A DNA stretch of 64,000 bases from a virus. Its lineage: Duplodnaviria > Heunggongvirae > Uroviricota > Caudoviricetes. The DNA lies in IMG/VR virus record IMGVR_UViG_3300038492_000258, positions 44,995-108,994 of that record; one strand, given 5' to 3'. Made by a program: the position numbers and the translations under genes. This document shows, in pieces, positions 12,096 through 55,030 of this stretch. The notes beneath the pieces were generated by a model, which was not told the origin of the DNA, made no database searches, and was given only the letters and a program-made list of their open reading frames with translations. Numbering within the stretch: position 1 is the first letter of the stretch; every line of letters begins with the position of its first letter.

Positions 12096-12098
12096 CGA

Positions 12099-15000
12099 TT
12101 ACCCCGGTTGTCCAAAGGAACTCAGTAGTCCACGTTCACGTAATACAGTAAAGACCGCTTCTAACTGCTCAGTAATAGCATCCAGTTGCGAAGTCGTTTG
12201 TTCATCAGCAGATGCCGAGATAGTATCTCTAATTTCATCAACCAGGCTATCTAGACCAGTAACAGTAATGGTCTGGTTTTGATTGGTGTCAAGTTGAATG
12301 CTAACATTCTCACCTGTTGTCGGGCTCGAAGCAGCAGTATCAGTATCGGTCAACGATGCGGTTTGGGTTTGAATTGCCGTATTGCTTAGGGCGATGTCAT
12401 TCAATTCACCACGCACACTTTCCAGTGTATTCACGACACGTTCCAGAATTTCGTCCGTACTCTCTGAGCCACCAGTTTCCAGTTGCGAAAGAGCCTGAGT
12501 AACAGAACGAGCAATAGCGGCAACAACAGTTTCGTTAATGCCACGAACTGCATCGATACCTGCGGCAATCGGACTACCGTCTTGGAAGTTAGGAACAAAA
12601 CCAAATTTACGCATCGGAATAATGGCTTCACTCGTATTTGCCACTGCTAATCCAGCACCAGCAGGCATTGCGTTCTTTTCACGCTGAGCCGCACGTAATA
12701 AACCAGCCGCCTCACTAGGTGTTAAATTACCTCCAGCAAAGTTAGGAATGTAACCAGCGTACAACGAACCAACCGCTGCCGCAGCTTCTAGTTGAGATAA
12801 ACGTGCTCCAATCACACTAGTAATACCATCAACAATGCTCTTACCAACGTCTCCGAACACCTTATTCTGTTCTGCAAACAGCTTAGCTTCACGCTCAATT
12901 TGCTTAAGTGTGTTTCTATCATCCGCAGCAATCACACGATTAGTCAACTCAATACGTTCTTGATTGGCTGCCTCAAGTACCGCAATTTCTTCGGCAATAC
13001 CTTCACGCACTAAACCAAGCTCTTCTCGTGCTCGCTCTTCTAGAATCTTAGCGGCCTCTAATTGCTCTTCAGCAATAGCAACCTGTTCTTGAGCTTGTTT
13101 AACTTGCTCAAAAGCAAGAGCAGCTTCCTGTTGAGACAAGCTTTGTAGAATCTGTAACTGTTCAACTTGTTGCGTTGTTAACTCTTCGAGCGAAGGCAGA
13201 CCAACCTCCGGAGCAACACCAGCACCAATCTGACCAATTGCTTTTTCTAACTGTTCAACGCTGAAACCACCAATGCTGGCAGAGTCAGGCAAGAACGATA
13301 AAGCGTCCAGAATCTGTTGACGGAACTCAAGTGGTAAATTCAGTAACTCCTTACTAAGAGAATCAAGCTCACCGCCACTCAAGCCCAAGAAGTTCTCAAA
13401 CGAACCACCGAGCTTCTCTGCAATAAATGCCAGGCCATCAATACCTTGCTGAAGAGCCGCGTTCTCTTCGGCACTCTGTCCAAAGATACCTAAGCCAGCC
13501 TGCGTGATTTGAGACTCAGCCTCCTGCAAGAAAGCTAATGTTTCGTTAGCAAGTTGTCGCTCAAGTGCAATGCGTTGTTCTAAACTAATATTAGCGTCGC
13601 CGAGTGCATCCGTGAAAGCAGCTTCTAAGCTCGCCAATCTTCCAGAAAAGGTAGAAATACCACCTGTTAAAATAGCAATATCTCTATTGATAAGATTAGT
13701 AGTAATCTCAGCTTCGGTTACGGCACCATTGAAGTCAAGAATCGCACCTTGCAAGTTCGCAAATGCGTTCGCCAGATTCTCTGTAGCGTCTAGAGTTTCC
13801 TGCTGAGCACTCTTCAAATTACTCTGTGCGTCTGCCTCTAAATCCGCTAAGTCTGCACGACGACTATCTGCAAACTCTTCAAAGCTTTGCTTACTTTCTT
13901 CTAGAGCGTCATTAAGAGAATCTGTTGCGTCTTCCAATTCTTGCAGCAGTTTTAGTCGCTTCTCTTCTGCTTTACGAGCCTCTTCAGCAGCTTTAGCTTC
14001 TTCTTGAGCAACCTTGATGCGTCCCTTAATAGTATTGATCACACCTTCTCGCTGGAGGTTTTCAATCTCTAGTTGTTTAGCACTCATCTTGAGCTGAAGC
14101 TCATTACGTACAAAAGCACCCTCAGTGCCTTCTGCTGCATTCTCAACCTTAGAGAATTCGTCTTGCAAATTAAATAACTCGTCGCGTAGTCTTTCAACGC
14201 GTACTGCTGTTTCTACAGAAGATTGTTGAAGGGCAATCTGTGCTTTCTCAACTTCCGTTAGATTAGCCAGCTTCTCAATGCTACTTAACGCATTTTCAGC
14301 GTTACCACCAAATTCAATAAGAGCAATCGCAAAATCGTCAGCAGCACGTCCAGCTTCTAAGCTAGCCGCCTGCTGTGCTTGAGCTAATTCTTTTTCTCTA
14401 TCAAGAATACTTTGACGTAATGTCTGTGTAGCAGTCAAACGATCAATCTCAGCCTGCTTAGCGTCCCCCTCAATAGCGATAACTTTACTTACAAAATCAC
14501 GCTCAGATGCCAACACACTATTATTGATACGCTCTAGTTCTTGAACAAGGGCATCACCTTCTTTGGCGAATGCAGAACGCACTTCGCCTAGTAAGGAAAT
14601 TGCACGACCCGGACCAATACCCGCCTCAGGAGCTTCGCTTTCCAGTAACGACTGACGTAAGTCATTGAAGCCCTTTTGTGCAACTAAGAAAGCTTGATCA
14701 GCACGCTCAGCCTCTACTCGTAAACGATCAATACCTTGAGCAAGATTCTCTGGTAACGTACGTGCATCCGCCAACGAAGCGTTCAGCGTAGTAAATCGAC
14801 TAGCTGCTTCAGCAAAATTCTTGATGTCTTCGAAAGCAGGAGCAAACGTTTCTTTCAGCAGACCAGTCGTTTCATCGATCTGCTTATCAACAACACCGAA
14901 GGCACGCAACAAGATTCTACTGCGTTCCGCAAGACTTAGTGTGCTATCACCATTCTCATCATAAGCGTCTTTCAATTCCTGAGCGGCTTCTGCGTTAGCA

Positions 15001-23534: not shown

Positions 23535-24108
23535 TGTCTAACTGCGACCTCTGAATTACTTCGGGTAAAATACGAACTTTAATATATCCATCAACCAATA
23601 CTAGAGTACGATCATCAGGATTGTTTTCCCATACTGGAAGTTTCGTGACAGGATCAATAAATTCCCCTGAAAAACCAAAGCCTCTAAAGGTCACTTGGTG
23701 GGGGTCAGATGTCAATCCACTCAAAAATCTTCCTACACGAATTCCTCCAAACGAAGATGAGTTCGTGAGAGTACCACTAGGACCAGCATATGCATGATCT
23801 CCGCTTTGCACGGTTCCTACGATATGAACCCAGTCTGTCTCAAAATCACCTTGTGTCGCAATACCAACAGTCCCCCAAGCGACATCAGTATTGCGAATTC
23901 TTTGTGGGTGAAACTCGCGAGCAAAATTGATATGTTCAATATCGTTAAGCTGCAAGCCCACCGGAATCATCCCGCTTGGGTCATGCTTATACTCAACGAT
24001 TGTACAACCAGATGCTGAGCCCCAACAGACTAAGCCGCCCCTCTCTTGTGTATAAGGGGTGACATAATCGTTGTTTACTTGCTGTGTTTGTCTAATCGGC
24101 CTTAACAT
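23518..24108 (-). CDS. Capsid cement/decoration-like protein, paralogue of 26463-26948
   Basis: Shared motifs M.LR..RQ, ERGG, P.GL.L.D[IV]E..N, VG[IL]AT.G[DE]F.TD[WF]V. Confidence 0.65.
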   Translation of the reverse strand: MLRPIRQTQQVNNDYVTPYTQERGGLVCWGSASGCTIVEYKHDPSGMIPVGLQLNDIEHINFAREFHPQRIRNTDVAWGTVGIATQGDFETDWVHIVGTVQSGDHAYAGPSGTLTNSSSFGGIRVGRFLSGLTSDPHQVTFRGFGFSGEFIDPVTKLPVWENNPDDRTLVLVDGYIKVRILPEVIQRSQLDNGVGT

Positions 24109-24436
24109 TGCGGAGAGCCCATTGGATCACTTGGATCTTGCGTTGTTTTGGCCAAGCTGCACAATACTTGACTTTGCACATTCTAACGCCAAGCTTGTCT
24201 AGTGTGTCTTCAGGGAGATGCCTTAATTCAGAATACGAGAAGCCGATCTCCGGAAAAGGTACACCAAACAGTTTTTGCAAAATATCTTCACGATATGTAG
24301 CGTCTTTAACTGCTCCTCTAATTTCCTTGTAAACTTCAAACGGCACGTCCACAGGATTTCTGCCAGTAGCTTGTCCGTAAATACGATAACCAGCTACATG
24401 CAAAACGCCTTTTGGATTTGCCGCATAGACTAACAT
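24092..24436 (-). CDS. Hypothetical protein (114 aa)
   Basis: ORF track; coupled in the operon. Confidence 0.65.
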   Translation of the reverse strand: MLVYAANPKGVLHVAGYRIYGQATGRNPVDVPFEVYKEIRGAVKDATYREDILQKLFGVPFPEIGFSYSELRHLPEDTLDKLGVRMCKVKYCAAWPKQRKIQVIQWALRNVKAD

Positions 24437-25308
24437 TAGTACACCATCTTACCGTAGTTACCAGTCTGTCTATTAAGGAAAGCACGCACAGCCATTTCGA
24501 GTTCTTTCTCACGAGTTGCCACATCTAATTTATGCAGATTAACTCGACTAGAAAGTCGGCCAGCAGATACTTGCACAACAGTACCATCTGGGTTTTTCAC
24601 CATCTTACCATCATTATCAGTTCCACTGGTTGTGACAGCAAACGGTCCAGACTTAGCAGTTGCAGCAAGTCGCTTGAGAGCACTGGTTTCCGCAGTAATG
24701 ATAATATATTCCATTTGCAGAATTACCAGATCACACAGCTCGTCATTGTTGGGCGTAATAGTCCCCGCCTCAACATCAACAGTAAGTTGACCTACCTGTA
24801 ATCTAGGTCCACCAAACGCTCCAGGAATACCCTGTGGTCTAGCAACTTTAGATAAACCTAATTTACCATTTAGGCGTCTCACTGCCTTCACAAGCACTCG
24901 TTTTAAGAAATCGTCATCAAAGACTTGCCCGTCTGGGTCTCCAATGTCAATACGAACTGCTTCATAAATTGTACCAGTTTTATCTGTGGCTGGCACAAAG
25001 CCGACTTGAATGTCAACTTCATTTACACAAAACGACTCAGATGCTTCCGCGAATGAGCCGCCTGTAGTAATTACGTCCCAATTAATTTTCCAGGTACCTA
25101 ACTGATACCCAGCGGGAATAACGCCAGAGCCAGTATATTTACCGACTGACGGATTGACCGCTACTCCACTAAAAGCAACGTTGTTAGCTGCATCAAGCAG
25201 CTCATATCCTACAAAGAAAGCATTGACCGGCGAACCGCCAGCTTGTAAATAAATATCAAGTGCCGAAGCTTCGGCCCCTACTGTCAGTGTTTTGGTTTCA
25301 CCAGACAT
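24436..25308 (-). CDS. Head-tail adaptor-like protein with N-terminal Ig-like domain
   Basis: First gene after the MCP terminator; beta-rich first ~95 aa, then helical AVRIDIGD...DDDFLKRVL. Confidence 0.55.
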   Translation of the reverse strand: MSGETKTLTVGAEASALDIYLQAGGSPVNAFFVGYELLDAANNVAFSGVAVNPSVGKYTGSGVIPAGYQLGTWKINWDVITTGGSFAEASESFCVNEVDIQVGFVPATDKTGTIYEAVRIDIGDPDGQVFDDDFLKRVLVKAVRRLNGKLGLSKVARPQGIPGAFGGPRLQVGQLTVDVEAGTITPNNDELCDLVILQMEYIIITAETSALKRLAATAKSGPFAVTTSGTDNDGKMVKNPDGTVVQVSAGRLSSRVNLHKLDVATREKELEMAVRAFLNRQTGNYGKMVY

Positions 25309-25413: not shown

Positions 25414-26445
25414 TTAGAATTCGCCGATAAGAACACGACGAGGATCAAGAACGGCGAAGCCGTGCTCCATCCAGCCGTAGATACCAGCACGTTGCTGACG
25501 GTACAGAGCCGGATCTTCGTAGGTTTCAAGTTCCTTACGAATTGGCATGACAAAGCTGTCCATCGTGGACAGGTCCAGGCCGATGCAGAATTCCTGGAGA
25601 GCCACAGACGAAACCGTGCGGTGCGAGCGGTTAAGAGTAGTTTCGAGGAATTCCTCGTACTCCTGACCAACGCCCCACTCAGTCATTTCGTGCAGAACAA
25701 CACCGTAGATCTGGGCGAGACCATAATCACGGCTAACGAAGATCTCACGACGAGTGAACTCGTCGATCTCATCAACGTCCCAAGCACGAATGTCTTCCAT
25801 AGCTTCCAGTGACAGGTAGACATCGGTCAGACGACCGGCGTTACCGTTACCACCCGCACCACGCGTCATCGCCGTCTTCATACGAGAGATAAGTTCTTTA
25901 GTGAACTGACCACCCGCAGGAGTCGGAGCAAGCGTAGAGCCGGTGAACGCACCACCACCAACAGCAGAAACGACCAGACCACGACCGTCAGCAGCACCGA
26001 TCAGGGTACGCCAACCGTCAGAGTTGATCTTACGAACAAAACCAGCTTCGTAAACACGGATCGCACGCATAATAACGTCGAAACGAGCTTCTTCAGCGTA
26101 CTTAATCGACCAATCGATCGAGTTAGCAATGTTGAAGGTCGGGACCCACAACTCGTCGCCTTCTACGTGACGCTCAGGGACTCTACCCTGCTTCGGCAGC
26201 GTGAAAGCGATGAAATTGTCTTCCTCACCGGGCTTGACGAAATCTAGCGGGTAATTAGCTTGGGCACCCGGTGCAAGCACCTGACGCTCAAAAATACCAC
26301 CTAGATTGTCACGGTCAAAGACACCCTCGCGGAGCGGTTTCTGAAGCTCAGCGGCGAAAGCACGCTGTGCTTGCGTACGAATACGCTCGTCAGGGTGAAC
26401 CGTTGCCTGGAGAGCTTCAACAGCAGCTTGAGAATAATTCTTCAT
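25414..26445 (-). CDS. Major capsid protein (HK97 fold)
   Basis: 343 aa; follows protease and cement genes; strong SD AGGAGG; biased codon use; terminator downstream; motifs GRVPER...VPTF.I...IDW. Confidence 0.88.
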   Translation of the reverse strand: MKNYSQAAVEALQATVHPDERIRTQAQRAFAAELQKPLREGVFDRDNLGGIFERQVLAPGAQANYPLDFVKPGEEDNFIAFTLPKQGRVPERHVEGDELWVPTFNIANSIDWSIKYAEEARFDVIMRAIRVYEAGFVRKINSDGWRTLIGAADGRGLVVSAVGGGAFTGSTLAPTPAGGQFTKELISRMKTAMTRGAGGNGNAGRLTDVYLSLEAMEDIRAWDVDEIDEFTRREIFVSRDYGLAQIYGVVLHEMTEWGVGQEYEEFLETTLNRSHRTVSSVALQEFCIGLDLSTMDSFVMPIRKELETYEDPALYRQQRAGIYGWMEHGFAVLDPRRVLIGEF

Positions 26446-44636: not shown

Positions 44637-45239
44637 ATGCAGAGAACTTGGTACGAATGGCTAACGGCTCGCTTAGCGGCGATGAACGACGGCAAGGGCT
44701 ACAGACTGTTTGGTGGACTCATCAAATGGGGTGGCCAGCGTATGATTCGTCGGGAACTAGATGAGGAAGAAGTAGATTATCTGGAAAGATTTTACATTCT
44801 TTCTACGCCATTTTTAGGGATCTACATTCATCGTTTCTGGTGCGATGATGACGATGGTCTTCATGATCATCCGTGGCATTCTCTTGGTGTTGTTTTGGAG
44901 GGTGCGTATAATGAAGAGATGCCAGAACGACAAGGCGTGCCTTATGGTCCTACAATTACCAAGCTACGTCAGCCATGGAGCCTAATGCGGCCATGGCGGA
45001 TTTTTGGTCGTTCAAAGTATTCGGCTCATCGTGTGACTGTACCTAATTGGGTAGCGAGTCCGCCATGGACGCTGTTTATTCGATTTGGTTTCAAAAGGCG
45101 TCCTTGGGGATTCTATCGTGATCGTGGTTGGGAAGCTGCCGAAGTGCAGTCTCGTGAAGAGGAGCTTGCTATTACAAAATGGGAAACACAAGAACATCAA
45201 CAGCCACGGAAGACCCGTGGCCATCAGACGAGTTGTTAA
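44637..45239 (+). CDS. Cupin-fold phage protein
   Basis: IYIHRF...LHDHPW.SLGVVLEGAYNE...AHRV...WTLF metal-binding cupin pattern. Confidence 0.75.
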   Translation: MQRTWYEWLTARLAAMNDGKGYRLFGGLIKWGGQRMIRRELDEEEVDYLERFYILSTPFLGIYIHRFWCDDDDGLHDHPWHSLGVVLEGAYNEEMPERQGVPYGPTITKLRQPWSLMRPWRIFGRSKYSAHRVTVPNWVASPPWTLFIRFGFKRRPWGFYRDRGWEAAEVQSREEELAITKWETQEHQQPRKTRGHQTSC

Positions 45240-45367
45240 CCGAGTTGCTATTCAAACTAACGCAGGTGCTAGATGGTAAAAAACAAATCGATGTTAAGCC
45301 TATGCATGGCGATAATTTTGGCCATGGTTTCACTATCCGAATCGTCCCACGCCCAGAGAGACGCTAG
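45179..45367 (+). CDS. Hypothetical protein (start uncertain)
   Basis: ORF track; competes with the overlapping 45273-45596 frame. Confidence 0.35.
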   Translation: MGNTRTSTATEDPWPSDELLTELLFKLTQVLDGKKQIDVKPMHGDNFGHGFTIRIVPRPERR

Positions 45368-45447
45368 GACGCGACGTGTAGTCGTTCTTAATACCAATAA
45401 GACACAAATTGTGAGGCGTCGCCCACCTGTGCGACGGGTAGTACTCA

Positions 45448-45660
45448 ATGAAAGAGTGCCGAGAAGAACATACGTGGGTTTCACCCGAGTTTACACACGA
45501 GAAACGCCGGTTTTGCGTAGAGTGCGGACGTGTCGAACTGTACAGCGGCCTCGAACAGAGGTACGTCGGACAAGGGTTCTTTTACGACGACGCTGAAGTA
45601 ATTGCAGGATTTATGCCAGATGACCTCAAAGAAAACAACATGGAAAATTGCGGTCGATAA
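45448..45660 (+). CDS. Small protein with H/CxxC motif (70 aa)
   Basis: C.EEHTW...FCVECG; preferred over the Arg-rich overlapping frame. Confidence 0.45.
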   Translation: MKECREEHTWVSPEFTHEKRRFCVECGRVELYSGLEQRYVGQGFFYDDAEVIAGFMPDDLKENNMENCGR

Positions 45661-45970
45661 AGACGGCAATCATTATCATTACGACGACCCGTGGCGACTT
45701 CGCAATGGCGACATTTCGATGGTCGAACCATTTGAGTTCGAAGATCGTCTATATTACTTAGACTATGAAAAGGGCCGCAGTCGGGTAACTATTCGATTTA
45801 AGTCACTGTCTAACGATCGCACTTATGATACGACTCTTGGAGAGTATCTTACTAATATTTTGCCAAACGGCGAAATTGAGAATGGTGTTTTTTCTATCAA
45901 GGGACGCTTTGGTTTTAAGAAACAAGGAACCTCAACGGCAATTGTCCTGTTAGACGGAGTCTATAAATGA
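45620..45970 (+). CDS. Hypothetical protein
   Basis: ORF track 45602-45970; ATG at 45620. Confidence 0.65.
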   Translation: MTSKKTTWKIAVDKDGNHYHYDDPWRLRNGDISMVEPFEFEDRLYYLDYEKGRSRVTIRFKSLSNDRTYDTTLGEYLTNILPNGEIENGVFSIKGRFGFKKQGTSTAIVLLDGVYK

Positions 45971-46446
45971 GGATCGCCGTGACGGGGCATCGTCCCGATA
46001 AACTCGGTGGTTATAGAGCCGACCTCAATTTTCGTAAGGTTCGTCGTCACATGCGACAATTTTTGTGGGATGCTCCCGAGGGGGAGTTAACGCTCCTTTC
46101 TGGAGGAGCCCTAGGAATTGATCAGTTTTGGATACAGGTCGGTCTATATCTAGACCTCCCTGTAGTTGCTGCGTTGCCGTTTGAAGGTTACGACGCAAAA
46201 TGGCCAGCGGCAAGTCGTCAAGAATACGAAAAACTACTTGACCGATGTCAAGAGGTCAGGTATGTTTGTGAGCCTGGTTACTCACCTACGAAGCTACAAA
46301 CTCGGAACGAGTGGCTCGTAGATAACTGCGATACGTTAGTAGCCTATTGGACAGGTCAGCCTGGAGGCACGTCCAATTGTATTGATTACGCTGGGTCGCA
46401 GGGCAGACGTACTGTTATTTTTGATCTAAACGAGATTTTGTCATGA
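45967..46446 (+). CDS. SLOG superfamily, YspA/DUF1273-like protein
   Basis: IAVTGHRP, SGGALGIDQ, AALPFEG...KW, RNEWLVD, AYW.G..GGTSNC. Confidence 0.9.
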   Translation: MRIAVTGHRPDKLGGYRADLNFRKVRRHMRQFLWDAPEGELTLLSGGALGIDQFWIQVGLYLDLPVVAALPFEGYDAKWPAASRQEYEKLLDRCQEVRYVCEPGYSPTKLQTRNEWLVDNCDTLVAYWTGQPGGTSNCIDYAGSQGRRTVIFDLNEILS

Positions 46447-46853
46447 AGCTAGACATTACCTTTTTGTTCGTGATTCTGGTTTTGATTACTGGAGCATTTG
46501 TTATTGGGGCTACTCAGGATGAAGTCGCTCCTCCAATCACATTTGATGTTATGTTCGATGCTGTTTATAAGCAGTCTGCTACTGAAGCCGAAATGATTGA
46601 AATGGCAGAGGCTCTTGGTATTGAAAATACATTTATCTACGATGCTGACATGACAAGGTCATTAGCGGCCTATGATGTAGATACACGAATCATTTTTGGT
46701 GCTCAACATATTATCACCGAACTGGTTACTGCCAAGACAAAAATTGGTTCATCTTACATGCGTCGTCCTGGTGAAGATTCACGTTGGCAAACATTATATG
46801 TAGAGCCACTCCATGAAGACGGTGTTCACAAAAATAAGTATTTCGCAGAATGA
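46443..46853 (+). CDS. Membrane-anchored/secreted hypothetical protein
   Basis: N-terminal hydrophobic stretch. Confidence 0.65.
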   Translation: MKLDITFLFVILVLITGAFVIGATQDEVAPPITFDVMFDAVYKQSATEAEMIEMAEALGIENTFIYDADMTRSLAAYDVDTRIIFGAQHIITELVTAKTKIGSSYMRRPGEDSRWQTLYVEPLHEDGVHKNKYFAE

Positions 46854-47461
46854 GCTACTACTTTATTAATGCTGACGAGAAGGTCTGGTGTGGATCAGAT
46901 CGAGACTATGCTCTAGAACATAGTCATACTGTTTGGCAACAGGGGGCTGTTATTGGTAAAGATTCTCATGGCGACGATATTTATGAATGGCTTTTGTTAA
47001 AAACAAAATGGCCTGGATACGAAGAATATGCTTGGTGGGAACCAAATAGAGAATCTAAGCCGTGGACGCTTTGGAACGGTCTGGTTGTTGATGTGACGGA
47101 AATTAGGGGCATTGATGCTGGACCTCCGCATAACATGCAGGGGCCAATCCTGTTAGGGGCTATCGAACCTAAAGAAGAATCTCCTTTTAACCTCAATGAA
47201 ATCGAAAACTTAGTCAAGCAAAAACAGCAAGCGTTTAATTACAAAGATCAATTAGAAAAAGAAATTGCTAACCAGAACCCCCTCAGGGGTTATGCGTTGG
47301 AGCCCTCTGAAATAGAAAAAAGAATAGAGGCGGCTCAGGCGAAAGCAGAACGAACGGCGGCTCGCGAAAAAGCGTTATACGAGAATTTAATTAAAAGTCA
47401 CGCAGACAAAGAATCGATTCAAAAAGCAATTATGGATCATTTGAATAGTCTCGAATATTAA
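46850..47461 (+). CDS. Hypothetical protein (203 aa, C-terminal coiled coil)
   Basis: ORF track; coupled. Confidence 0.65.
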   Translation: MSYYFINADEKVWCGSDRDYALEHSHTVWQQGAVIGKDSHGDDIYEWLLLKTKWPGYEEYAWWEPNRESKPWTLWNGLVVDVTEIRGIDAGPPHNMQGPILLGAIEPKEESPFNLNEIENLVKQKQQAFNYKDQLEKEIANQNPLRGYALEPSEIEKRIEAAQAKAERTAAREKALYENLIKSHADKESIQKAIMDHLNSLEY

Positions 47462-47463
47462 TA

Positions 47464-48378
47464 ATGAAAACTTTAGTTCGCACAGTATTTGGTTCGGAAC
47501 TATATGGCACCAGCACGCCCGCAAGTGACCGTGACGAAAAAGGGGTGTTCATGCCAGATACTCGCGATATTTTACTTGGCAGAATCCCCAAAACGGCCAA
47601 TTTGTCGGTGAAGGATGACACTCGACGCAACTCCCCCGGCGAACTGGACGGCGACATGTACAGTCTCCATCATTTTGTTAAATTGGCGTGCCAGGGGCAA
47701 ACGGTCGCCATCGACATGCTCTGGACTCCAAGGGAAATGATCTTGGAAGATTCAGAGACTTGGAATGAGCTAATTTCTCTACGAGAAAAGTTTTTGTCTA
47801 AAAACATGAAGGCGTTCGTGGGTTATGCACGGGCACAGGCTGCGAAGTATAGCTTAAAGGGCGATCGTCTAACTAAATTGCGAGAGTTTTTAGCTGTGCT
47901 AAAAAATAGCGATCCTAGTGACTGCCTTGCACATGTTTGGGATAAGTTGCCCCAAGACGACGAGCGTGAAGGACCGCATTGTACAGAACTACAAATTGCG
48001 GGTAAGTGGTTTGGTAGAACCACACGTATCGATCACGTCAAAGAATCTGTAGAAAGCTTGATTGCACGATACGGCAAGCGTGCTAATGCTGCGGCTACGG
48101 CCGATGGTCGTGATTGGAAAGCACTAAGTCATGCTTTGCGGGTGAGTCTAGAACTTAAGGAGCTTTTGCAAACAAAACGCTTACGATTCCCGCTGTATGA
48201 TGCTGATACCTTAACTGCAATTAAAACAGGCGTATACGAGCTATCGGAAGTACAGCGGCTCATCGATCATACGCTTGAAGAAATTGAGACACTTATGGAG
48301 TCCAGTAATTTGCCCGAAAAGGTAGATTACAAATTCTGGGATGACTGGTTGTTTGAAAAAACAAAAAGAATGCTATAA
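47464..48378 (+). CDS. Pol-beta superfamily nucleotidyltransferase (T4 NrdC.11-like)
   Basis: FGSELYGTSTPASDRDEKGVFMP (GS..G...SD.D); helical C-terminus WKALSHALR. Confidence 0.85.
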   Translation: MKTLVRTVFGSELYGTSTPASDRDEKGVFMPDTRDILLGRIPKTANLSVKDDTRRNSPGELDGDMYSLHHFVKLACQGQTVAIDMLWTPREMILEDSETWNELISLREKFLSKNMKAFVGYARAQAAKYSLKGDRLTKLREFLAVLKNSDPSDCLAHVWDKLPQDDEREGPHCTELQIAGKWFGRTTRIDHVKESVESLIARYGKRANAAATADGRDWKALSHALRVSLELKELLQTKRLRFPLYDADTLTAIKTGVYELSEVQRLIDHTLEEIETLMESSNLPEKVDYKFWDDWLFEKTKRML

Positions 48379-48589
48379 TATTCTGCTAAAGTGGGAACGC
48401 CAAGCGATTCTAAAAACACTGCATATTACTTGGGAAGCCATCCCGAGTTGGATGGACTGGGAGTGGTGCAATACTCTTCCTATGACATGGGATAATCCGT
48501 GGCACTTGCTTTATAGTGTACTAAATGGATATCCACCTCCCGGTTATCGACCCATTTTTATTGGTATAAAGGCAAATCATGAAGAATAA
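48341..48589 (+). CDS. Trp-rich hypothetical protein (start uncertain)
   Basis: ORF track fills the gap. Confidence 0.4.
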   Translation: MTGCLKKQKECYNILLKWERQAILKTLHITWEAIPSWMDWEWCNTLPMTWDNPWHLLYSVLNGYPPPGYRPIFIGIKANHEE

Positions 48590-49148
48590 TGTACAATTGC
48601 AGCCTGGGGATATCTTCTTGACCAGAGGTCAAGGTTGGCTTAGCAAAGCTATTCGTCGCTTCACAACGACTTTCGGCGAGAGCCGAAGTAAAGTTAATCA
48701 CGTCGGTATTATTACGACCGAAGGCGACCTTTCGACGGCTGCTGCTGTCGAAGCGTTGCATACAGTTAAGCGACATACACTTATGGAAGAGTATGGTGGA
48801 ACTAACCAGGAAGTAGCCATTTATCGGCCAGTCAACTTGACGCCTGCGGAATTAGAGGCTATTGTTAAACGTGCTGAAGGATACGTAGGACAGAGCTACG
48901 GTTATCTCAAGATCTTTACGCATCTCATGGATTGGTGTCTTTGTGGAGCTTATCTGTTTAGACGACTGACTGCGTCAGATCGATATCCGATCTGTTCTTG
49001 GTTAGTTGCACACGCATATCTCGCGGCAGGAAAAGATTTCGGGGTTGATGCGGGAGCAGCAAGCCCTGATGATATTTGGGATTTTGTAACGCACAGAGGA
49101 CACAGAAGGTATTACCGATGCGTAAGACGACTATCAAAACTATCTTGA
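48579..49148 (+). CDS. Permuted papain-like amidase (YaeF/YiiX, NlpC/P60 superfamily)
   Basis: LQPGDIFL, NHVGI (His) before GQSY and ICSWLVAHAY (Cys), SPDDI. Confidence 0.85.
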   Translation: MKNNVQLQPGDIFLTRGQGWLSKAIRRFTTTFGESRSKVNHVGIITTEGDLSTAAAVEALHTVKRHTLMEEYGGTNQEVAIYRPVNLTPAELEAIVKRAEGYVGQSYGYLKIFTHLMDWCLCGAYLFRRLTASDRYPICSWLVAHAYLAAGKDFGVDAGAASPDDIWDFVTHRGHRRYYRCVRRLSKLS

Positions 49149-49227: not shown

Positions 49228-49596
49228 ATGAAGCTTGTTGATATCTTAGCATCGTTTCGCGAACAGGTTAGTGAAGCTCTCACTGACAATCATAATGCGT
49301 TTGGATATATTGCAAGTAATAATCCAGACACTCGTATCGTGCTCTTCGATGTAAACGATCGTAAAACCTTTGCGATTTGCGATATTGTGATTACAAAAGA
49401 ATGTCGTGTTGTTAAGAATCGTTGGGGTGTTATTGATCACAACGAACCATTGCCGCTAAAACAAGGTGACGGTAGCAGCGACTATGGTGGATATTACAGT
49501 ATTCCACAAGAGGTTCTAGAAGGCAAAGAGTGGAAGCCTGTTCACAAAGGCAAAAGATGGATTTCGAGATCTAATGTCCAAATACTACATAAGTAG
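49228..49596 (+). CDS. KGxRWI-array ORF 1 (122 aa)
   Basis: Ends ...HKGKRWISRSNVQILHK. Confidence 0.75.
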   Translation: MKLVDILASFREQVSEALTDNHNAFGYIASNNPDTRIVLFDVNDRKTFAICDIVITKECRVVKNRWGVIDHNEPLPLKQGDGSSDYGGYYSIPQEVLEGKEWKPVHKGKRWISRSNVQILHK

Positions 49597-49825
49597 ACAA
49601 ATGGGAAAACCTGAACCGAACATGGGACCCGGAGAATGGCACTCGGCTTCGAAGGGTATCCTGAAGATTAAAGATATGGCTCAACACCATATTCTTAATG
49701 CTATTAAGAAGATCAAACGTGAGGGTTGGCGGGAAGACAAGTTACTAGAACTAGAAAACGAGTTGCGGCTTCGCCGCAAACCTGATGTTACTAAAGGACA
49801 ACGGTGGATCAGAAAACGTTCGTAG
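49574..49825 (+). CDS. KGxRWI-array ORF 2 (83 aa)
   Basis: Ends ...TKGQRWIRKRS. Confidence 0.75.
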   Translation: MSKYYISRQMGKPEPNMGPGEWHSASKGILKIKDMAQHHILNAIKKIKREGWREDKLLELENELRLRRKPDVTKGQRWIRKRS

Positions 49826-49971
49826 ACAGCTTCTCTAAACTCGGACATTTTATCGACTTTACTACACAAAGTGTAAAGACACTTAATGAAACTATTAAGG
49901 TCACCGTCTCGCATATCAGCAAATTCCGCCACCGGAAGGGAAGACGATGGATAACGAAGAAGACAGATTAA
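49804..49971 (+). CDS. KGxRWI-array ORF 3 (55 aa, not in ORF track)
   Basis: GTG start inside the previous motif; MDQKTFVDSF...HRKGRRWITKKTD. Confidence 0.7.
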   Translation: MDQKTFVDSFSKLGHFIDFTTQSVKTLNETIKVTVSHISKFRHRKGRRWITKKTD

Positions 49972-50147
49972 TTGGTATGGATAATGTCGTTATTCCATAT
50001 GAGGGCCAGTCTTTGTGGGGTGATCTGGAAGATATCATTAAGAAAAATTTTGTTCCCAAAATCGACACTGCTCCCGAGCAATTCATTAAAGGAATAGTGA
50101 AACACAAGAAAGGTCGGAGATGGATCGAGAAGAGGACTTCACAATAG
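49947..50147 (+). CDS. KGxRWI-array ORF 4 (66 aa)
   Basis: Starts MD inside the previous motif; ends KKGRRWIEKRTSQ. Confidence 0.7.
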   Translation: MDNEEDRLIGMDNVVIPYEGQSLWGDLEDIIKKNFVPKIDTAPEQFIKGIVKHKKGRRWIEKRTSQ

Positions 50148-50323
50148 ACGACATATCAACCAGCGGATCATTTTCATATGGCGGTGCTGTTCAAGACGCT
50201 CATGGTATGTGGAACTTTCCTATTCAGGCAAGCGGCATGATCATGATTAATGACATGTATATGCCTCCTCAGCACACTAAAGGACGACGTTGGATTACGA
50301 AAGATGAAACTGAAAGAAGCTAG
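50120..50323 (+). CDS. KGxRWI-array ORF 5 (67 aa)
   Basis: Starts MD inside the previous motif; ends TKGRRWITKDETERS. Confidence 0.7.
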   Translation: MDREEDFTIDDISTSGSFSYGGAVQDAHGMWNFPIQASGMIMINDMYMPPQHTKGRRWITKDETERS

Positions 50324-50582
50324 AGTTTTATCGATCTATGATACACACAAAGTTGTCTATGGCGAAATAGTAGATGATTTAATTAGAGCCGACAGGCTCT
50401 ATCATCATGTACCAGATAGCCTAAACACGCCCGAGGATTACGACACACTCGCGGAAGCGATGTCTATATATAAGAAATATGAAATCCACCAAAAGATTTG
50501 GGGCGAAACAGTTGACCCAAAACAATTTGTGATCAAAGGCAAACGATGGATACCCTTGAACCCAGAAATTACGACGGCGTAG
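50304..50582 (+). CDS. KGxRWI-array ORF 6 (92 aa)
   Basis: ATG 50304 (MKLKEAR); ends IKGKRWIPLNPEITTA. Confidence 0.7.
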   Translation: MKLKEARVLSIYDTHKVVYGEIVDDLIRADRLYHHVPDSLNTPEDYDTLAEAMSIYKKYEIHQKIWGETVDPKQFVIKGKRWIPLNPEITTA

Positions 50583-50917
50583 GATATCGAGCAATCACTG
50601 ATATTGACGCTTTAATATTACTGGCGGTTGATCCAAGAGTAGTGTCTTTCTTAACGGAAGGAGTTAGGTCCAGCACGGCCCTTAATGAATCGCGTGTTCT
50701 GGCTAGCAGGTTTTACAAAGCAGGATACGACCCCAACGATTTTGTGCAATTATTGCGTGCTTTACACCGCATAGTGAGCGAAAGCGATGACGCTGTGCCT
50801 GCGGGACAAATTGTTACTATGATGAAACGCTTTGCTAGATATTATCATCATAACACAGTTATGAAGGGTAGGCGATGGATTTATGCATCGCAAGGAACTT
50901 GCGATGCAGAAGTATAA
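50546..50917 (+). CDS. KGxRWI-array ORF 7 (123 aa)
   Basis: Starts MD inside the previous motif; ends MKGRRWIYASQGTCDAEV. Confidence 0.75.
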   Translation: MDTLEPRNYDGVGYRAITDIDALILLAVDPRVVSFLTEGVRSSTALNESRVLASRFYKAGYDPNDFVQLLRALHRIVSESDDAVPAGQIVTMMKRFARYYHHNTVMKGRRWIYASQGTCDAEV

Positions 50918-51227
50918 CGGTTACCACAATCCGAACGATCTAACTCCGTTTGACACGGAAATAACGGAAGATGACCTGAATAGACTGAAGCATGCGAAAA
51001 ATGATCCTATGGGAGGTATCAGAGTTACTCTAGACTTCTTAGAAAGAGTAAATTACGACCCGAATGACTATTTAGATGTCGTACGCAATCTACTTAAACG
51101 AGAAACGGGTTCAAGTGACATTGCGGAAGAGACGAAGAGATTTATTCTGAAAAGAACTTTGGATGTAAAAGCTAGGGGCTACGCCCCTAGGAAGGGTCGT
51201 CGATGGATCTTGAAAAGTTCGCAATAA
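50883..51227 (+). CDS. KGxRWI-array ORF 8 (start 50883 or 50904)
   Basis: Ends RKGRRWILKSSQ; shares YDPND with ORF 7. Confidence 0.75.
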   Translation: MHRKELAMQKYNGYHNPNDLTPFDTEITEDDLNRLKHAKNDPMGGIRVTLDFLERVNYDPNDYLDVVRNLLKRETGSSDIAEETKRFILKRTLDVKARGYAPRKGRRWILKSSQ

Positions 51228-51430
51228 CACCAGATGCAGACGATGACACGGGTCATAGGGTATATTATCAAACTACAGGCGGCCAATGGCGATGGTTAAT
51301 CCTCACACATAGAGGAGTATGGACTGCATTAATGGCCCTATTATCAAGCGAATTCTCGCAAGAGAGTGTACACCCCATTTATATAGAATTCCGAAATGAA
51401 GACTTCGAACTCAAAGATATTTGTCGCTAG
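51203..51430 (+). CDS. Small W-x-A-[ILV] family paralogue 1
   Basis: Starts MD inside the last KGxRWI; contains GVWTALMALL...IYIEF. Confidence 0.65.
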   Translation: MDLEKFAITPDADDDTGHRVYYQTTGGQWRWLILTHRGVWTALMALLSSEFSQESVHPIYIEFRNEDFELKDICR

Positions 51431-52043
51431 CGATACCCATTTTGGGCACGCCAATATTATTAAGTATTGCGAAAGGCCGTTTGCAGACGCCCGCAAGATG
51501 GACGACGCACTTCTTAATTCTTTTTCCCAGCGGCTTGATAGCGAAGCTATCCTTTATTTCCTAGGAGATCTTACCTTCGCCCCCGATTGGCGAGAGCAAG
51601 AGATCTTGCGAGAACTTTCTGGCATGTGCCGGAAAATCTTCATCCTAAAGGGAAACCATGATACTCCAAGCAAATGGGGCAAGGGTGTCGAAGAAAACGT
51701 TCGCGTTGCGAACACTGAGAATATTAAAGTAATAGATAAGGACATTCACGCTATTCAGCATGAAGGCAAGAAAATTGTGATGTGCCATTATGCGATCACA
51801 GATTGGGATGGCAAATTCCATGGGAGCATTCACCTTCACGGCCATTCCCATGGCCGTGTTGTGAAGGAAGTTCCGACAGAGAAAGATGTTCACTGGGCCA
51901 CTTACGCCAACGGAATTATGGGGCGATCGACCGTTCCTTTTATTGATAATCGTTATGACGTTGGCGTCGATATGTACGGTGGTCCTGTTCTTCTGACGGG
52001 AGATTTGCGGTATATCAATAATCCGAAGGGTTGGGATGTATGA
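51396..52043 (+). CDS. Calcineurin-like metallophosphoesterase
   Basis: SDTHFGH, LGDL, GNHD, CHY, HLHGHSH, DVGVD. Confidence 0.93.
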   Translation: MKTSNSKIFVASDTHFGHANIIKYCERPFADARKMDDALLNSFSQRLDSEAILYFLGDLTFAPDWREQEILRELSGMCRKIFILKGNHDTPSKWGKGVEENVRVANTENIKVIDKDIHAIQHEGKKIVMCHYAITDWDGKFHGSIHLHGHSHGRVVKEVPTEKDVHWATYANGIMGRSTVPFIDNRYDVGVDMYGGPVLLTGDLRYINNPKGWDV

Positions 52044-53461: not shown

Positions 53462-53624
53462 CAAGGATTTTACGGAATGGCGAGCGGCTATTCTTGATTG
53501 GAATGGGGTGGAATCACATCGTTCTGGGCGTCGGATAGATGGGCCGTGGCAGGCCGTCAGTCATTTAATGACATTGTATCCTTTGTATCTAAAAGACGTC
53601 ATTCAGTTGCGATTCAAAAAATGA
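53436..53624 (+). CDS. Small W-x-A-[ILV] family paralogue 6
   Basis: GPWQAVSHLMTLY...DVIQLRF. Confidence 0.65.
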   Translation: MSTTTVVISKDFTEWRAAILDWNGVESHRSGRRIDGPWQAVSHLMTLYPLYLKDVIQLRFKK

Positions 53625-53827
53625 CGACTCTTACGATAGGCCGCGATGCAGATAATAAGTGGGTTTTGTCTTTTCCGGCTCCAGAATACGCTATAGATCC
53701 AAAAGAAAATTGGACCACAAGTAGCTATGAACTTTGGCGATGTATTGGATTCGCTACTCAATTATACGGCGAACATATGGATAGAGTTGTGCATATTAAG
53801 CTTGAAGATGACAATCATAACCCTTAA
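53621..53827 (+). CDS. Small W-x-A-[ILV] family paralogue 7 (ATG 53621)
   Basis: ELWRCIGFATQLY...RVVHIKL. Confidence 0.65.
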   Translation: MTTLTIGRDADNKWVLSFPAPEYAIDPKENWTTSSYELWRCIGFATQLYGEHMDRVVHIKLEDDNHNP

Positions 53828-54014
53828 ACGCGAAGAATTATGGTGGAACGCATCCATTGATGGACCACAAAATAGTGTTTTTGATGCATGGGGAGCAAGT
53901 GCTCAGGAACCCTGGAAAGCAATTGGGAATGTGTTATCCTTATATTGCACGCATCTAGGTGGTGTTGTTAGCATTCAGTTGGACAGCAAAGCTGCTGAGG
54001 AAGAGGGCGTCTGA
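53808..54014 (+). CDS. Small W-x-A-[ILV] family paralogue 8 (ATG 53808)
   Basis: EPWKAIGNVLSLY...GVVSIQL. Confidence 0.65.
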   Translation: MTIITLKREELWWNASIDGPQNSVFDAWGASAQEPWKAIGNVLSLYCTHLGGVVSIQLDSKAAEEEGV

Positions 54015-54081
54015 AAATGGGTCCCGTGTGGTTTTACACCACCTGGCAACATTTCTCTTACATAACGGTACCTTTACAATG

Positions 54082-54122
54082 AAAAAACCCCCACCCCGGG
54101 AAGATTTTTCCCGAAGCGGAGG
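54082..54122 (-). terminator. Rho-independent terminator ending the minus-strand early block
   Basis: CCTCCGCTTCGGGAA-AAATC-TTCCCGGGGTGGGGG plus T6 (G-U pairs favour the minus strand); at the convergent junction. Confidence 0.75.
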
Positions 54123-54171
54123 CTATGTAAATATCTCGTATGAAAGCGTCTTTTACAATTCTTTTACTTGA

Positions 54172-54462
54172 CTAATCTTCCTCTCTCAATTCTCCTGTGA
54201 AAAGTTTTCGTCCCTTGCTCTCTTCCATGGGTGAATATCCTTCGCATACATGTGTTGCGTCTTTGTATGCTAGGGTAATTGTTTCCCTATACTCACCCTG
54301 TACATAGGTGGCACTACGTAGCACCCCTTCCCCTACATGGGAATTTTCTTCATGCCCTGCCCTACAGCGTGCATCGAAAAAACTTTCCGCATCAGTGTAC
54401 AGGGAAAATTCTTCCAGTACGTGCGTACCGCTGTCGGTTGTGTGTCGTGTTACTTGGAACAT
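54172..54462 (-). CDS. Hypothetical early protein (96 aa)
   Basis: ORF track; leaderless promoter upstream. Confidence 0.65.
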   Translation of the reverse strand: MFQVTRHTTDSGTHVLEEFSLYTDAESFFDARCRAGHEENSHVGEGVLRSATYVQGEYRETITLAYKDATHVCEGYSPMEESKGRKLFTGELREED

Positions 54463-54467
54463 GGTAC

Positions 54468-54496
54468 ACTATACCCTAGTGGCCTAGATTTGTCAA
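54468..54496 (-). promoter_or_regulatory. Sigma70 promoter TTGACA-N17-TATAGT, leaderless
   Basis: ATG 5 nt after the -10 box. Confidence 0.7.
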
Positions 54497-54499
54497 TTC

Positions 54500-55030
54500 C
54501 TATTTGCAGAAAATCGCATCCATCTCGGCCAGGGAGCGGGCACGCTTGCTAGCCTTGCTCTCCCCCTCTAGCTCTAGCTCATGCGTAGGCTCACCCTGTA
54601 GGCGAAGGGTGCGGGGATCGTAGCTCGCCAGTTTGACACGGCGGGAAAGAGCGGCTTGGGCATTCTGGCGGGCTTGGTATTCGTGGCGTTCCATCTTAGT
54701 AGGCTCCCTTTGGGTTCGCCTACTAGAGCGGGGAATTTCGTAGATCCGAACGTTTGGTTTTGTAAATTCGTATTTACGTTCGTTCGCCTCTAGCAACCAG
54801 GAAAAAATTTCCTGTTGAAATTCGCAGTCTAGGGGATAGACTTTATGCGGAACATATTTCCAGAATTCATTTCCACCTAGGGCTAGCCTACGGCCTACGT
54901 ATGGGGTGGATTGTGCCACTACGTACCCATAGGAAATTCTTACCCAATCTGTCCCTATGTAGATTGTTCCACATAGAGAGGGACACTGTAGCAGGGAAAC
55001 TAGTTCCTCTAGATTGTCTCCCCGAATCAT
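54500..55030 (-). CDS. Hypothetical early protein (176 aa)
   Basis: ORF track; ATGA coupling to the upstream mini-ORF. Confidence 0.65.
   Translation of the reverse strand: MIRGDNLEELVSLLQCPSLCGTIYIGTDWVRISYGYVVAQSTPYVGRRLALGGNEFWKYVPHKVYPLDCEFQQEIFSWLLEANERKYEFTKPNVRIYEIPRSSRRTQREPTKMERHEYQARQNAQAALSRRVKLASYDPRTLRLQGEPTHELELEGESKASKRARSLAEMDAIFCK

What the first reader, a model, noticed from the sequence alone, without database searches (positions are those of the whole stretch)
49228..51227. Eight consecutive, mostly unrelated small proteins all ending in a KG[RKQ]RWI tag
Seen: KGKRWI, KGQRWI, KGRRWI (x5) and KGKRWI lie 4-11 residues from the C-terminus of eight adjacent ORFs (55-123 aa), including a 55-aa ORF missed by the track. 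The motif was not seen in any other ORF in the window. Codons vary synonymously (K AAA/AAG; G GGC/GGA/GGT; R AGA/AGG/CGA/CGG/CGT; I ATT/ATC/ATA), which points to selection on the peptide. Inference: a shared C-terminal address/docking tag that delivers diverse cargo domains to one partner (capsid loading/ejection, membrane, nucleic acid, or a host hub protein). RWIx[KR] loosely resembles the APIM clamp-binding consensus [KR][FYW][LIVA][LIVA][KR], but position 4 mostly deviates. I know no described system like this; it is the top candidate in the window.
Basis: partly seen in the sequence, partly recalled or inferred. Interest (0 to 1): 0.92.

Follow-up and report, generated by a model that had tools for sequence, protein, structure and literature searches.

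The report
Shared C-terminal tag on phage proteins
Eleven otherwise unrelated small proteins of a large uncultured aquatic phage carry the same short peptide (K-G-K/R/Q-R-W-I) near their ends, its codons also serve as the ribosome site and start of the next gene, and a sister phage puts a different end-peptide on the matching genes, which points to an exchangeable "address label" whose reader is still unknown.

Summary
KG[KRQ]RWI occurs 8 times in the window (0 expected by chance) and 3 more times elsewhere in the 182-kb phage record, always in the same frame and 2-11 residues before a stop.

Variation falls on wobble positions, including AGR/CGN arginine switches, so the peptide is under selection. 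The same 17 nt also form AAGG, 6-7 nt and [A/G/T]TG-GAT. In 6-7 of 11 cases this is the start of the next gene; in 4 cases it opens only 2-22 codons, yet the peptide is kept.

The closest relative (TerL 73% identical) has no KGRRWI. There, about 25-30 genes end exactly in F-x-[LI]-x-G-A-L. Both G000 tagged genes that have an orthologue there pair with such a gene. A third genome keeps that tag in 10 of 10 orthologues. Seven further relatives, fully scanned for recurrent C-terminal peptides, show none.

Best reading (about 0.5): a lineage-specific, portable C-terminal docking peptide read by one common partner, double-coded with the next gene's initiation site. My leading guess is head loading (about 0.2), then degron or clamp-type docking.

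This scan has noted similar shared tails in other phages before. I found no published description.

The parts
49546..49563 (+). tag 1, KGKRWI, in g1. The embedded ATG (49557) opens only MDFEI-stop, and its TAA overlaps the ATG of g2 (TAATG).
49793..49810 (+). tag 2, KGQRWI, in g2. The embedded GTG (49804) is the start of g3.
49936..49953 (+). tag 3, KGRRWI, in g3. The embedded ATG (49947) is the start of g4.
50109..50126 (+). tag 4, KGRRWI, in g4. The embedded ATG (50120) is the start of g5.
50279..50296 (+). tag 5, KGRRWI, in g5. The embedded TTG (50290) opens only 5 codons, and its TGA overlaps the ATG of g6 (ATGA, 50304).
50535..50552 (+). tag 6, KGKRWI, in g6. The embedded ATG (50546) is the start of g7.
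50864..50881 (+). tag 7, KGRRWI, in g7. The embedded ATG (50875) opens only 22 codons. g8 starts at 50883 or 50904 in another frame.
51192..51209 (+). tag 8, KGRRWI, in g8. The embedded ATG (51203) is the start of g9.
49228..49596 (+). g1, 122 aa. No family and no homologue other than itself.
49574..49825 (+). g2, 83 aa, no family hit
49804..49971 (+). g3, 55 aa, GTG start, no family hit
49947..50147 (+). g4, 66 aa, no family hit
50120..50323 (+). g5, 67 aa, no family hit
50304..50582 (+). g6, 92 aa when counted from the ATG that overlaps the mini-ORF stop; no family hit
50546..50917 (+). g7, 123 aa, paralogue of g8
50883..51227 (+). g8, 114 aa (107 aa if it starts at 50904, as in the public gene call), paralogue of g7
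51203..51430 (+). g9, 75 aa. It starts inside tag 8 and carries no tag itself, so it ends the chain.
48579..49148 (+). Peptidase_C92 (YiiX-like permuted papain) gene directly upstream of the array. It lies in the same stretch between RlaP and the phosphoesterase. It was tested as a candidate reader and is not supported.
47464..48378 (+). RlaP-type nucleotidyltransferase, left flank. In relative L133 it abuts the phosphoesterase directly.
51396..52043 (+). metallophosphoesterase-like gene, right flank of the stretch that is extra relative to L133. No family scan was run on this gene itself.
   Evidence: its G001 and G002 best hits differ from the Metallophos gene scanned

Best explanation
KG[KRQ]RWI-x-[KR] is a lineage-specific short linear peptide placed on the flexible C-terminal tail of otherwise unrelated small accessory proteins. 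It is kept by selection on the amino acids.

Inferred role: it acts as a common docking handle, so that one reader protein can handle all carriers as a group.

Its 17 nucleotides are used twice. AARGG is the Shine-Dalgarno box, and the wobble base of the second Arg codon plus TG is the start codon of the downstream gene, which therefore begins M-D. As a result, 'tag plus junction' is a portable cassette boundary. Any ORF placed behind it is translated, and any ORF placed before it is tagged. This explains the head-to-tail chain of eight genes that sits in a variable gap between RlaP and the phosphoesterase.

The sister lineage uses a different handle (F-x-[LI]-x-G-A-L-COOH) on the orthologous genes, so the handle and its reader appear to have been exchanged together.

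What is shown: peptide-level selection, double coding, portability and lineage specificity. What is inferred: that a single reader exists.

My leading guess for the job is loading into the procapsid for delivery with the DNA, by analogy with the T4 capsid targeting sequence (about 0.2). Next come a degradation signal (about 0.12) and replisome or clamp-type docking (about 0.06).
For: 1. There are 11 copies in 182 kb against about 0 expected. All are in one frame relative to the embedded start and all lie 2-11 residues from a stop.

2. Information content per base is 2.0 2.0 1.1 | 2.0 2.0 0.1 | 1.1 1.1 0.9 | 1.0 2.0 0.8 | 2.0 2.0 2.0 | 2.0 2.0 0.6. Variation sits on wobble bases. Arg is written AGA, AGG, CGA, CGG and CGT. 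Flanks carry below 1 bit.

3. The peptide, including the basic residue at I+2, is kept at g1, g5 and A, where the embedded start opens only 5, 5 and 2 codons. At g7 (22 codons) the core hexapeptide is kept but I+2 is Ala.

4. The nucleotide motif never occurs in the genome outside these 11 sites.

5. Both G000 tagged genes that have a G001 orthologue in the same syntenic slot pair with a G001 gene ending in F-x-L-x-G-A-L. Fisher p is about 2e-4 over about 110 orthologue pairs; one of the two pairs was found by a targeted search.

6. The G001-type tag sits on about 25-30 of 282 genes. It is retained in 10 of 10 orthologue pairs with a third genome at 46-77% body identity. Over the nine pairs compared codon by codon, the seven tag codons show 24 synonymous and 11 non-synonymous differences, the latter mostly at the x positions.

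7. Seven further clade members (G002-G007, G009), fully fetched and scanned for recurrent C-terminal peptides, show none. Ten relatives (G004-G013) have 0 hits to the DNA motif, as do G002 and G003.

8. In an AF2 model of carrier B, the tail is unstructured at pLDDT about 30, against about 50-72 for the body. The model is weak overall.

9. Double coding: AAGG at 6-7 nt from the start fits the genome's SD spacing. The Arg wobble base is A in 7, G in 3, T in 1 and C in 0 copies, against 34% A-ending Arg codons genome-wide.
Against: No reader was found. No clamp or PDZ family hit appeared. The ClpP-like protease also occurs in tag-less G002. Genes exclusive to G000 and G001 are a glycosyltransferase, methyltransferases, a phosphoesterase and small unknowns.

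For the G000-type tag itself there are no orthologues from close relatives, so conservation through time is shown only for the sister tag.

The tag lies at a variable distance from the end, unlike most C-terminal recognition signals.

The array sits in a plus-strand block of small genes. It is not among the head genes, which does not favour head loading.

Only two orthologue pairs support functional equivalence of the two tags.

Part of the motif (K-G from the SD, W-I from ATG-GAT) could be held by the overlapping initiation site alone.
Confidence: 0.5

Rival explanations
1. By-product of a conserved translation-initiation and junction cassette. The selected object is the RNA (SD AAGG, 6-7 nt, ATG-GAT), spread by tandem duplication and recombination. 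The peptide is merely what this RNA encodes in the upstream frame and has no function.
For: Every copy contains an SD-like AAGG at the genome's usual spacing from an [A/G/T]TG. In 6-7 of 11 copies the embedded start opens the next gene. The Arg wobble base is biased towards start-forming A or G. The resulting 22-37-nt gene overlaps are unusual for this genome. g7 and g8 are paralogues, and the array fills a gap that relative L133 lacks.
Against: The six spacer bases are not free. They always read [K/R/Q] plus the first two bases of Arg, with AGR/CGN switches. All 11 copies use one of the two possible upstream frames. Four copies keep the core hexapeptide although the embedded start is dead, and three of them also keep the basic residue at I+2. 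No gene start in the genome has this cassette without the upstream frame. In the sister lineage the tag is conserved between orthologues through synonymous change, and its SD-like GG is replaceable.
Confidence: 0.15
2. Degradation signal. The tails are degrons read by a host or phage AAA+ protease or adaptor, which gives the carriers a short, programmed lifetime. The G000 tail would be of the basic MuA-like kind (RRKKAI-COOH). The G001 tail would be of the non-polar ssrA-like kind (..LAA-COOH). One protease could then read both, without any change of reader.
For: ClpX reads C-terminal degrons of both kinds: ssrA (...YALAA) and MuA (RRKKAI), as listed in Table 1 of PMC8138137. Carriers A and B end KGKRWIKK and KGRRWIRR. 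The G001 tag sits at the extreme C-terminus and ends in small non-polar residues. Many carriers are small genes in blocks that, in the third genome, also hold anti-defence families.
Against: Eight of 11 G000 tags are followed by 4-11 further residues, often acidic or polar, whereas these degrons act at the very end. The conserved positions (F at -7 and L at -5; K-G and W) have no counterpart in known degrons. The host is unknown. Nothing was measured.
Confidence: 0.12
3. Clamp-type docking. R-W-I-x-[KR] is an APIM-like peptide and F-x-L-x-G-A-L-COOH a clamp-binding-motif-like peptide. Both would plug the hydrophobic pocket of the host beta-clamp or another replisome hub.
For: The APIM consensus is [KR]-[FYW]-[LIVA]-[LIVA]-[KR]. 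APIM peptides such as RWLVK bind the beta-clamp pocket, which is described as promiscuous (PMC7261172). g8 reads RWILK, a full match. Carriers in the sister lineage include a ParB-domain protein and a weak OB-fold protein.
Against: Position 4 fits in only 1 of 11 copies. K-G and the first basic residue, which are as conserved as R-W-I, are not part of APIM. No Gln of the QL-x-LF type is present in the G001 tag. No phage clamp family hit was found. It is hard to see why 4-10% of the genes would dock on a clamp.
Confidence: 0.06
4. One fast-diverging paralogue family. The shared tail is the last structural element of a common fold (for folding or oligomerisation), left recognisable after the bodies diverged. 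No external reader is needed.
For: g7 and g8 are still recognisable paralogues. g3 and g4 share 13 residues around the tag. Tandem arrays commonly arise by duplication.
Against: Carriers B and C belong to families whose members in G001 and G003 have other tails. Carrier lengths range from 55 to 123 aa with no shared body pattern. Profile and family searches link none of them. The tail of B is modelled as disordered.
Confidence: 0.07
5. Substrate mark for the neighbouring papain-like C92 enzyme, which would trim or modify the tails.
For: The C92 gene lies directly upstream, in the same orientation, in the same stretch that relative L133 lacks. His and Cys in the family's usual sequence contexts can be read in its sequence.
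Against: Sixteen homologous C92 loci in other phages have no tagged array nearby. Three carriers lie far from the gene. G001 has tags but no detected C92 homologue by BLAST; the family scan also missed G000's own copy, so it is not informative.
Confidence: 0.03

Closest known systems
T4 capsid targeting sequence (CTS) on internal proteins IPI-III, Alt and others (reviews PMC3012670 and PMC9026906, listed by title and abstract but not opened; the polymorphic IP loci of T-even phages are from my own knowledge)
   Same: A short terminal peptide shared by otherwise unrelated, fast-evolving small phage proteins that sit in tandem in a hypervariable locus. It works as an address to one phage structure.
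   Different: The CTS is N-terminal and is cut off by the prohead protease. It has another sequence, and its reader (the scaffolding core) is known. Here the tag is C-terminal, 2-11 residues from the end. There is no evidence of cleavage or of presence in virions.
APIM and clamp-binding motifs (PMC7261172)
   Same: R-W-I-x-[KR] fits four of the five APIM positions. These are short peptides on disordered tails shared by many clients of one hub.
   Different: Position 4 fails in 10 of 11 copies. The conserved K-G-[KRQ] prefix is foreign to APIM. No clamp gene was found in the phage and no binding was tested.
C-terminal ClpX degrons: ssrA (..LAA) and MuA (RRKKAI) (PMC8138137)
   Same: A basic-plus-hydrophobic tail (G000) and a small non-polar tail (G001) on the C-terminus, read by one machine.
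   Different: Most G000 tags are not terminal. The conserved anchor residues differ. No stability data exist.
Encapsulin cargo-loading peptides (own knowledge)
   Same: C-terminal peptides that load unrelated cargo into an HK97-fold shell. The G001 tag (hydrophobic-x-hydrophobic-x-G-small-L) has a similar flavour.
   Different: The consensus is different. No encapsulin is involved, the G000 tag is basic, and loading is untested.
Earlier notes of this scan on other phages (e1-831089, e1-4772764, e1-173140, e1-1616325, e1-3433680)
   Same: Many unrelated small phage proteins end in one peptide that is uniform within a genome and differs between related genomes.
   Different: These are other sequences, other phage groups and mostly extreme C-terminal positions. 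Here the tag is in addition the RBS and start codon of the next gene, and the switch of tag is seen on orthologous genes.

Membership tests
APIM (PCNA and beta-clamp interacting motif) | Pentapeptide [KR]-[FYW]-[LIVA]-[LIVA]-[KR] | tested here: not met
   Positions 1-3 (R-W-I) fit in 11 of 11 copies and position 5 in 9 of 11. Position 4 is S, R, T, E, T, P, Y, L, K, R or G, so it fits only in g8 (consensus from PMC7261172).
APIM (PCNA and beta-clamp interacting motif) | Binds the hydrophobic pocket of a sliding clamp | not tested
   No clamp family hit in G000, G001 or G002 (PF02768 and PF09116). The host is unknown. The single complex-prediction job was not spent on a stand-in clamp.
T4-type capsid targeting sequence | N-terminal peptide removed by the prohead protease at an L/I-x-E site | tested here: not met
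   The tag is C-terminal and no such site is conserved next to it.
T4-type capsid targeting sequence | Shared by unrelated small proteins encoded in tandem in a hypervariable locus | tested here: met
   Eight consecutive carriers sit in a stretch that relative L133 lacks. They have no homologues.
T4-type capsid targeting sequence | Carriers are found inside proheads or virions | not testable with these tools
   The phage is uncultured (aquatic metagenome), so no proteome exists.
ClpX C-terminal degron, MuA class | Basic cluster plus hydrophobic residue at the very C-terminus (RRKKAI-COOH) | tested here: inconclusive
   Carriers A and B end 2 residues after the tag (KGKRWIKK, KGRRWIRR). The other nine have 4-11 further residues.
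Twin-arginine (Tat) signal | N-terminal S/T-R-R-x-F-L-K followed by a hydrophobic stretch | tested here: not met
   The R-R-W-I is C-terminal, has no spacer residue and has no hydrophobic segment after it.
Programmed -1 frameshift site joining the genes into a polyprotein | Slippery heptamer X-XXY-YYZ at the junction | tested here: not met
   The sequences of the 11 sites share no slippery heptamer. Each downstream frame has its own SD and start codon.

The most novel reading that the evidence does not exclude
A subclade of large aquatic phages runs a switchable address system. Between 4 and 10% of the genes genome-wide, and more than a quarter of the genes in one 20-kb stretch, carry a genome-specific C-terminal peptide read by one phage-encoded receptor, for example the procapsid interior, so that a changing arsenal of small effectors is packed and delivered with the DNA. 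Because the tag's codons are also the ribosome site and start of the next gene, the tag is a plug-and-play cassette joint: newly captured ORFs are expressed and addressed automatically. The tag and its receptor were swapped as a pair between sister lineages.
Probability: 0.18. Interest if true: 0.85.

Novelty: new variant of a known kind. Interest (0 to 1): 0.62.

Why it matters
Most small early and accessory genes of large phages are unannotatable. A shared terminal peptide groups them by what handles them, and it gives a direct experimental hook: a peptide pull-down, or a tag-GFP fusion.

This locus adds two things to the principle of terminal address peptides. First, the tag is written in the same nucleotides as the next gene's initiation site, which suggests how arrays of novel genes can grow while staying both expressed and addressed. 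Second, orthologous genes in sister phages carry different tags, which is the signature expected if a tag and its reader co-evolve.

If it is a host hub or a protease, it would show a general way for phages to control dozens of proteins at once.

Tried and rejected
- BLAST, near and distant, of the locus against 50,697 phage records: no match.
- Pfam and PHROG scans on g1-g9 and on carriers A, B and C: nothing above noise.
- Relatives of g7 in IMG/VR: none.
- Homologue searches: g1 and C find only themselves among 5.8 billion proteins. The g7/g8 profile against 1.84 billion representatives finds only the two genes plus two giant adhesins, whose score is a sum of many sub-threshold repeat matches and is spurious.
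- Loci around RlaP homologues in metagenomes: no tagged arrays.
- C92 enzyme as reader: 16 homologous loci have no tagged genes.
- Hunt for a reader. Genes exclusive to G000 and G001, or to G000 alone, are a dUTPase, methyltransferases, a ligase, a phosphoesterase, a GT-B glycosyltransferase, a primase, an alpha/beta hydrolase and unknowns. Net charges of the exclusive orthologue pairs gave no hint. The 642-aa gene inside the G001 tagged cluster is RIIA-like. There were no clamp or PDZ hits. The ClpP-like protease is present in the tag-less G002 too. The family scan for PF05708 missed the window's own C92 gene, so blanks from that tool are weak.
- The G001 tag pattern in IMG/VR finds only G001 plus two chance hits.
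- The 'SPMVT' endings in G007 are low-complexity repeats, not a tag.
- Sequencing runs: no RNA holder is listed. Only contigs were available, and they show no variant inside the array.
- Promoter and terminator scan: nothing decisive inside the array.
- Frameshift polyprotein and Tat signal were rejected from the sequence.
- The complex-prediction job was not used. No candidate pair had a prior high enough for a pass to be decisive.
Full report
WHAT IS THERE

The window is part of a 182-kb, about 86% complete, uncultured phage record (G000) from an aquatic metagenome. Between an RlaP-type nucleotidyltransferase (47464-48378) and a phosphoesterase-like gene (51396-52043) lie three things: a C92 papain-like gene, eight consecutive small ORFs (g1-g8, 55-123 aa), and g9.

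Each of g1-g8 carries KG[KRQ]RWI 4-11 residues before its stop, and no other six-frame copy exists in the window. The degenerate DNA pattern matched 8 times against 0.00 in 100 shuffles.

Three more carriers lie elsewhere in the genome: A at 151458(+), B at 25922(-) and C at 14291(-). Each tag is 2-5 residues from a stop. In 9 of 11 copies a basic residue follows at I+2.

None of the carriers has a Pfam or PHROG family. Those searched against the large protein collections (g1, C, and g7/g8 as a profile) find only themselves. g7 and g8 are paralogues.

TWO CODES IN ONE STRETCH

At the nucleotide level every copy reads AAR GGN MRN MGD TGG ATH. AAGG lies 6-7 nt from an [A/G/T]TG formed by the Arg wobble base plus the TG of Trp. 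This matches the SD spacing of the genome's long genes.

That embedded start opens the next gene at five junctions in the array (g2/g3, g3/g4, g4/g5, g6/g7, g8/g9) and at carrier C. At carrier B it lies in frame four codons upstream of the conserved ATG. At g1, g5, g7 and A it opens only 5, 5, 22 and 2 codons.

The Arg wobble base is A in 7 copies, G in 3, T in 1 and C in 0. Genome-wide, 34% of Arg codons end in A. The nucleotide layer is therefore real.

It does not explain the peptide, for four reasons:
- Information per base is 3-periodic. The six 'spacer' bases always spell K/R/Q plus the first two bases of Arg, with AGR/CGN switches.
- All 11 copies use the same upstream frame.
- The core hexapeptide persists at all four sites where the start is unused.
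- The motif never occurs at a gene start without the upstream frame.

At least ten independent codon changes at K, G, R and I are all synonymous. As a rough estimate, that has a chance of about 1e-6 if about a quarter of changes were synonymous.

RELATIVES

The terminase gene finds two relatives: G001 (73% identity) and G002 (64%). Neither has the tag.

G001 has its own tag. About 25-30 of 282 genes end exactly in F-x-[LI]-x-G-[AS]-L-stop, again with wobble variation and with the stop overlapping the next start.

The two G000 carriers that have a G001 orthologue both pair with a gene carrying the G001 tag, in the same syntenic slot:
- B pairs with G001 111089-111499 (29% over 65 aa).
- C pairs with G001 100389-100664 (28% over 80 aa).

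Over about 110 orthologue pairs this gives Fisher p of about 2e-4. One of the two pairs came from a targeted look.

In the B family, the G003 orthologue has FELSLVM internally at the place of G001's FDLGGAL. G000's B has a degenerate remnant there, followed by an added tail that carries KGRRWI. This suggests replacement by extension.

A third genome (L227) keeps the G001-type tag in 10 of 10 orthologue pairs at 46-77% body identity. Over the nine pairs compared codon by codon, the tag codons show 24 synonymous and 11 non-synonymous differences. At least 11 of 41 genes in that 20-kb stretch end in the tag or a close variant, and they lie among Gad2- and Acb5-family genes.

Ten further clade members (G004-G013) have no KGRRWI DNA motif. 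Six that were fetched whole (G003-G007, G009) show no recurrent end-peptide, and neither does G002.

In relative L133 RlaP abuts the phosphoesterase, so the C92 gene and the array fill a gap that this relative lacks. G002, which has an RlaP orthologue, has other small untagged genes at that place.

INTERPRETATION

The data show a portable, lineage-specific C-terminal peptide under purifying selection. It sits on a tail that an AF2 model leaves unstructured, although that model is weak overall. It is written in the same bases as the next gene's initiation site.

The simplest reason for dozens of unrelated proteins to keep one peptide, and for orthologues to carry the local version, is a common reader. 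This is inference.

- There were no clamp or PDZ family hits.
- A ClpP-like protease is present in the tag-less G002 as well.
- Genes exclusive to the tagged lineages are glycan, methyl and nucleotide enzymes or unknowns.
- The neighbouring C92 enzyme is not linked to tagged arrays in 16 other phage loci.

By analogy with the T4 capsid targeting sequence on tandem, hypervariable internal-protein genes, I rank head loading first (about 0.2). A degron comes next (about 0.12; ClpX reads both basic and non-polar C-terminal signals, PMC8138137). Clamp docking follows (about 0.06; APIM fails at position 4 in 10 of 11 copies, PMC7261172).

The main non-reader rival is that the peptide is a by-product of the junction cassette (about 0.15).

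COMPARISON AND NOVELTY

Terminal address peptides are a known kind: the T4 CTS, encapsulin loading peptides, clamp motifs and degrons. This tag meets none of their sequence definitions.

The scan has recorded similar genome-uniform, lineage-variable tails in other phages. My literature searches found no description.

What is specific to this locus is the double coding with the next gene's start, and the tag switch on orthologous genes.

Noticed in passing
window 49594-51430 (stops of g1, g2, g4, g5, g6 and g9): Six of the nine array genes end in TAG, against 21% of genes genome-wide (binomial p about 0.0045). Read-through would add 5-30 residues.
   Followed up: partly
window 49677-49706 and 51226-51255: In run X2 the assembly breaks at these two points. 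Other sequence joins on, and contig depth steps from 244 to 112 to 72. This suggests co-existing strains that differ in what flanks the middle of the array.
   Followed up: no
L227:14275-15036 and L227:17838-18041: Gad2 (anti-Gabija) and Acb5 (anti-CBASS) family genes lie among the F-x-L-x-G-A-L-tagged genes of the third genome. This hints that the tagged blocks are anti-defence or host-takeover regions.
   Followed up: no
L098:5221-7146 (G001 45221-47149): An RIIA-like GHKL-ATPase gene sits in the middle of the G001 tagged cluster.
   Followed up: partly
L141-L161, about 11000-12300; G000 24027-24887(-): A conserved GT2-like protein of about 280 aa next to the B slot ends in ..M-Q-[AK]-G-K-K-W-K in most relatives. 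This native basic-Trp tail superficially resembles the tag. I did not establish whether it is meaningful.
   Followed up: no
L124:7224-8757 (G000 147224-148760); G001 53598-54982: A GT-B glycosyltransferase plus methyltransferase-like gene pair occurs in G000 and G001, and orthologues of both lie in the third genome L227, but not in the seven other relatives fetched whole. In G001 it directly follows two tagged genes.
   Followed up: partly
G007 contig ends (481-5724 and 134550-140364): Several ORFs end in tandem S-P-M-V-T-type repeats. This is low-complexity repeat DNA near both contig ends.
   Followed up: no
None of them carries the tag. I did not study this run.
   Followed up: no
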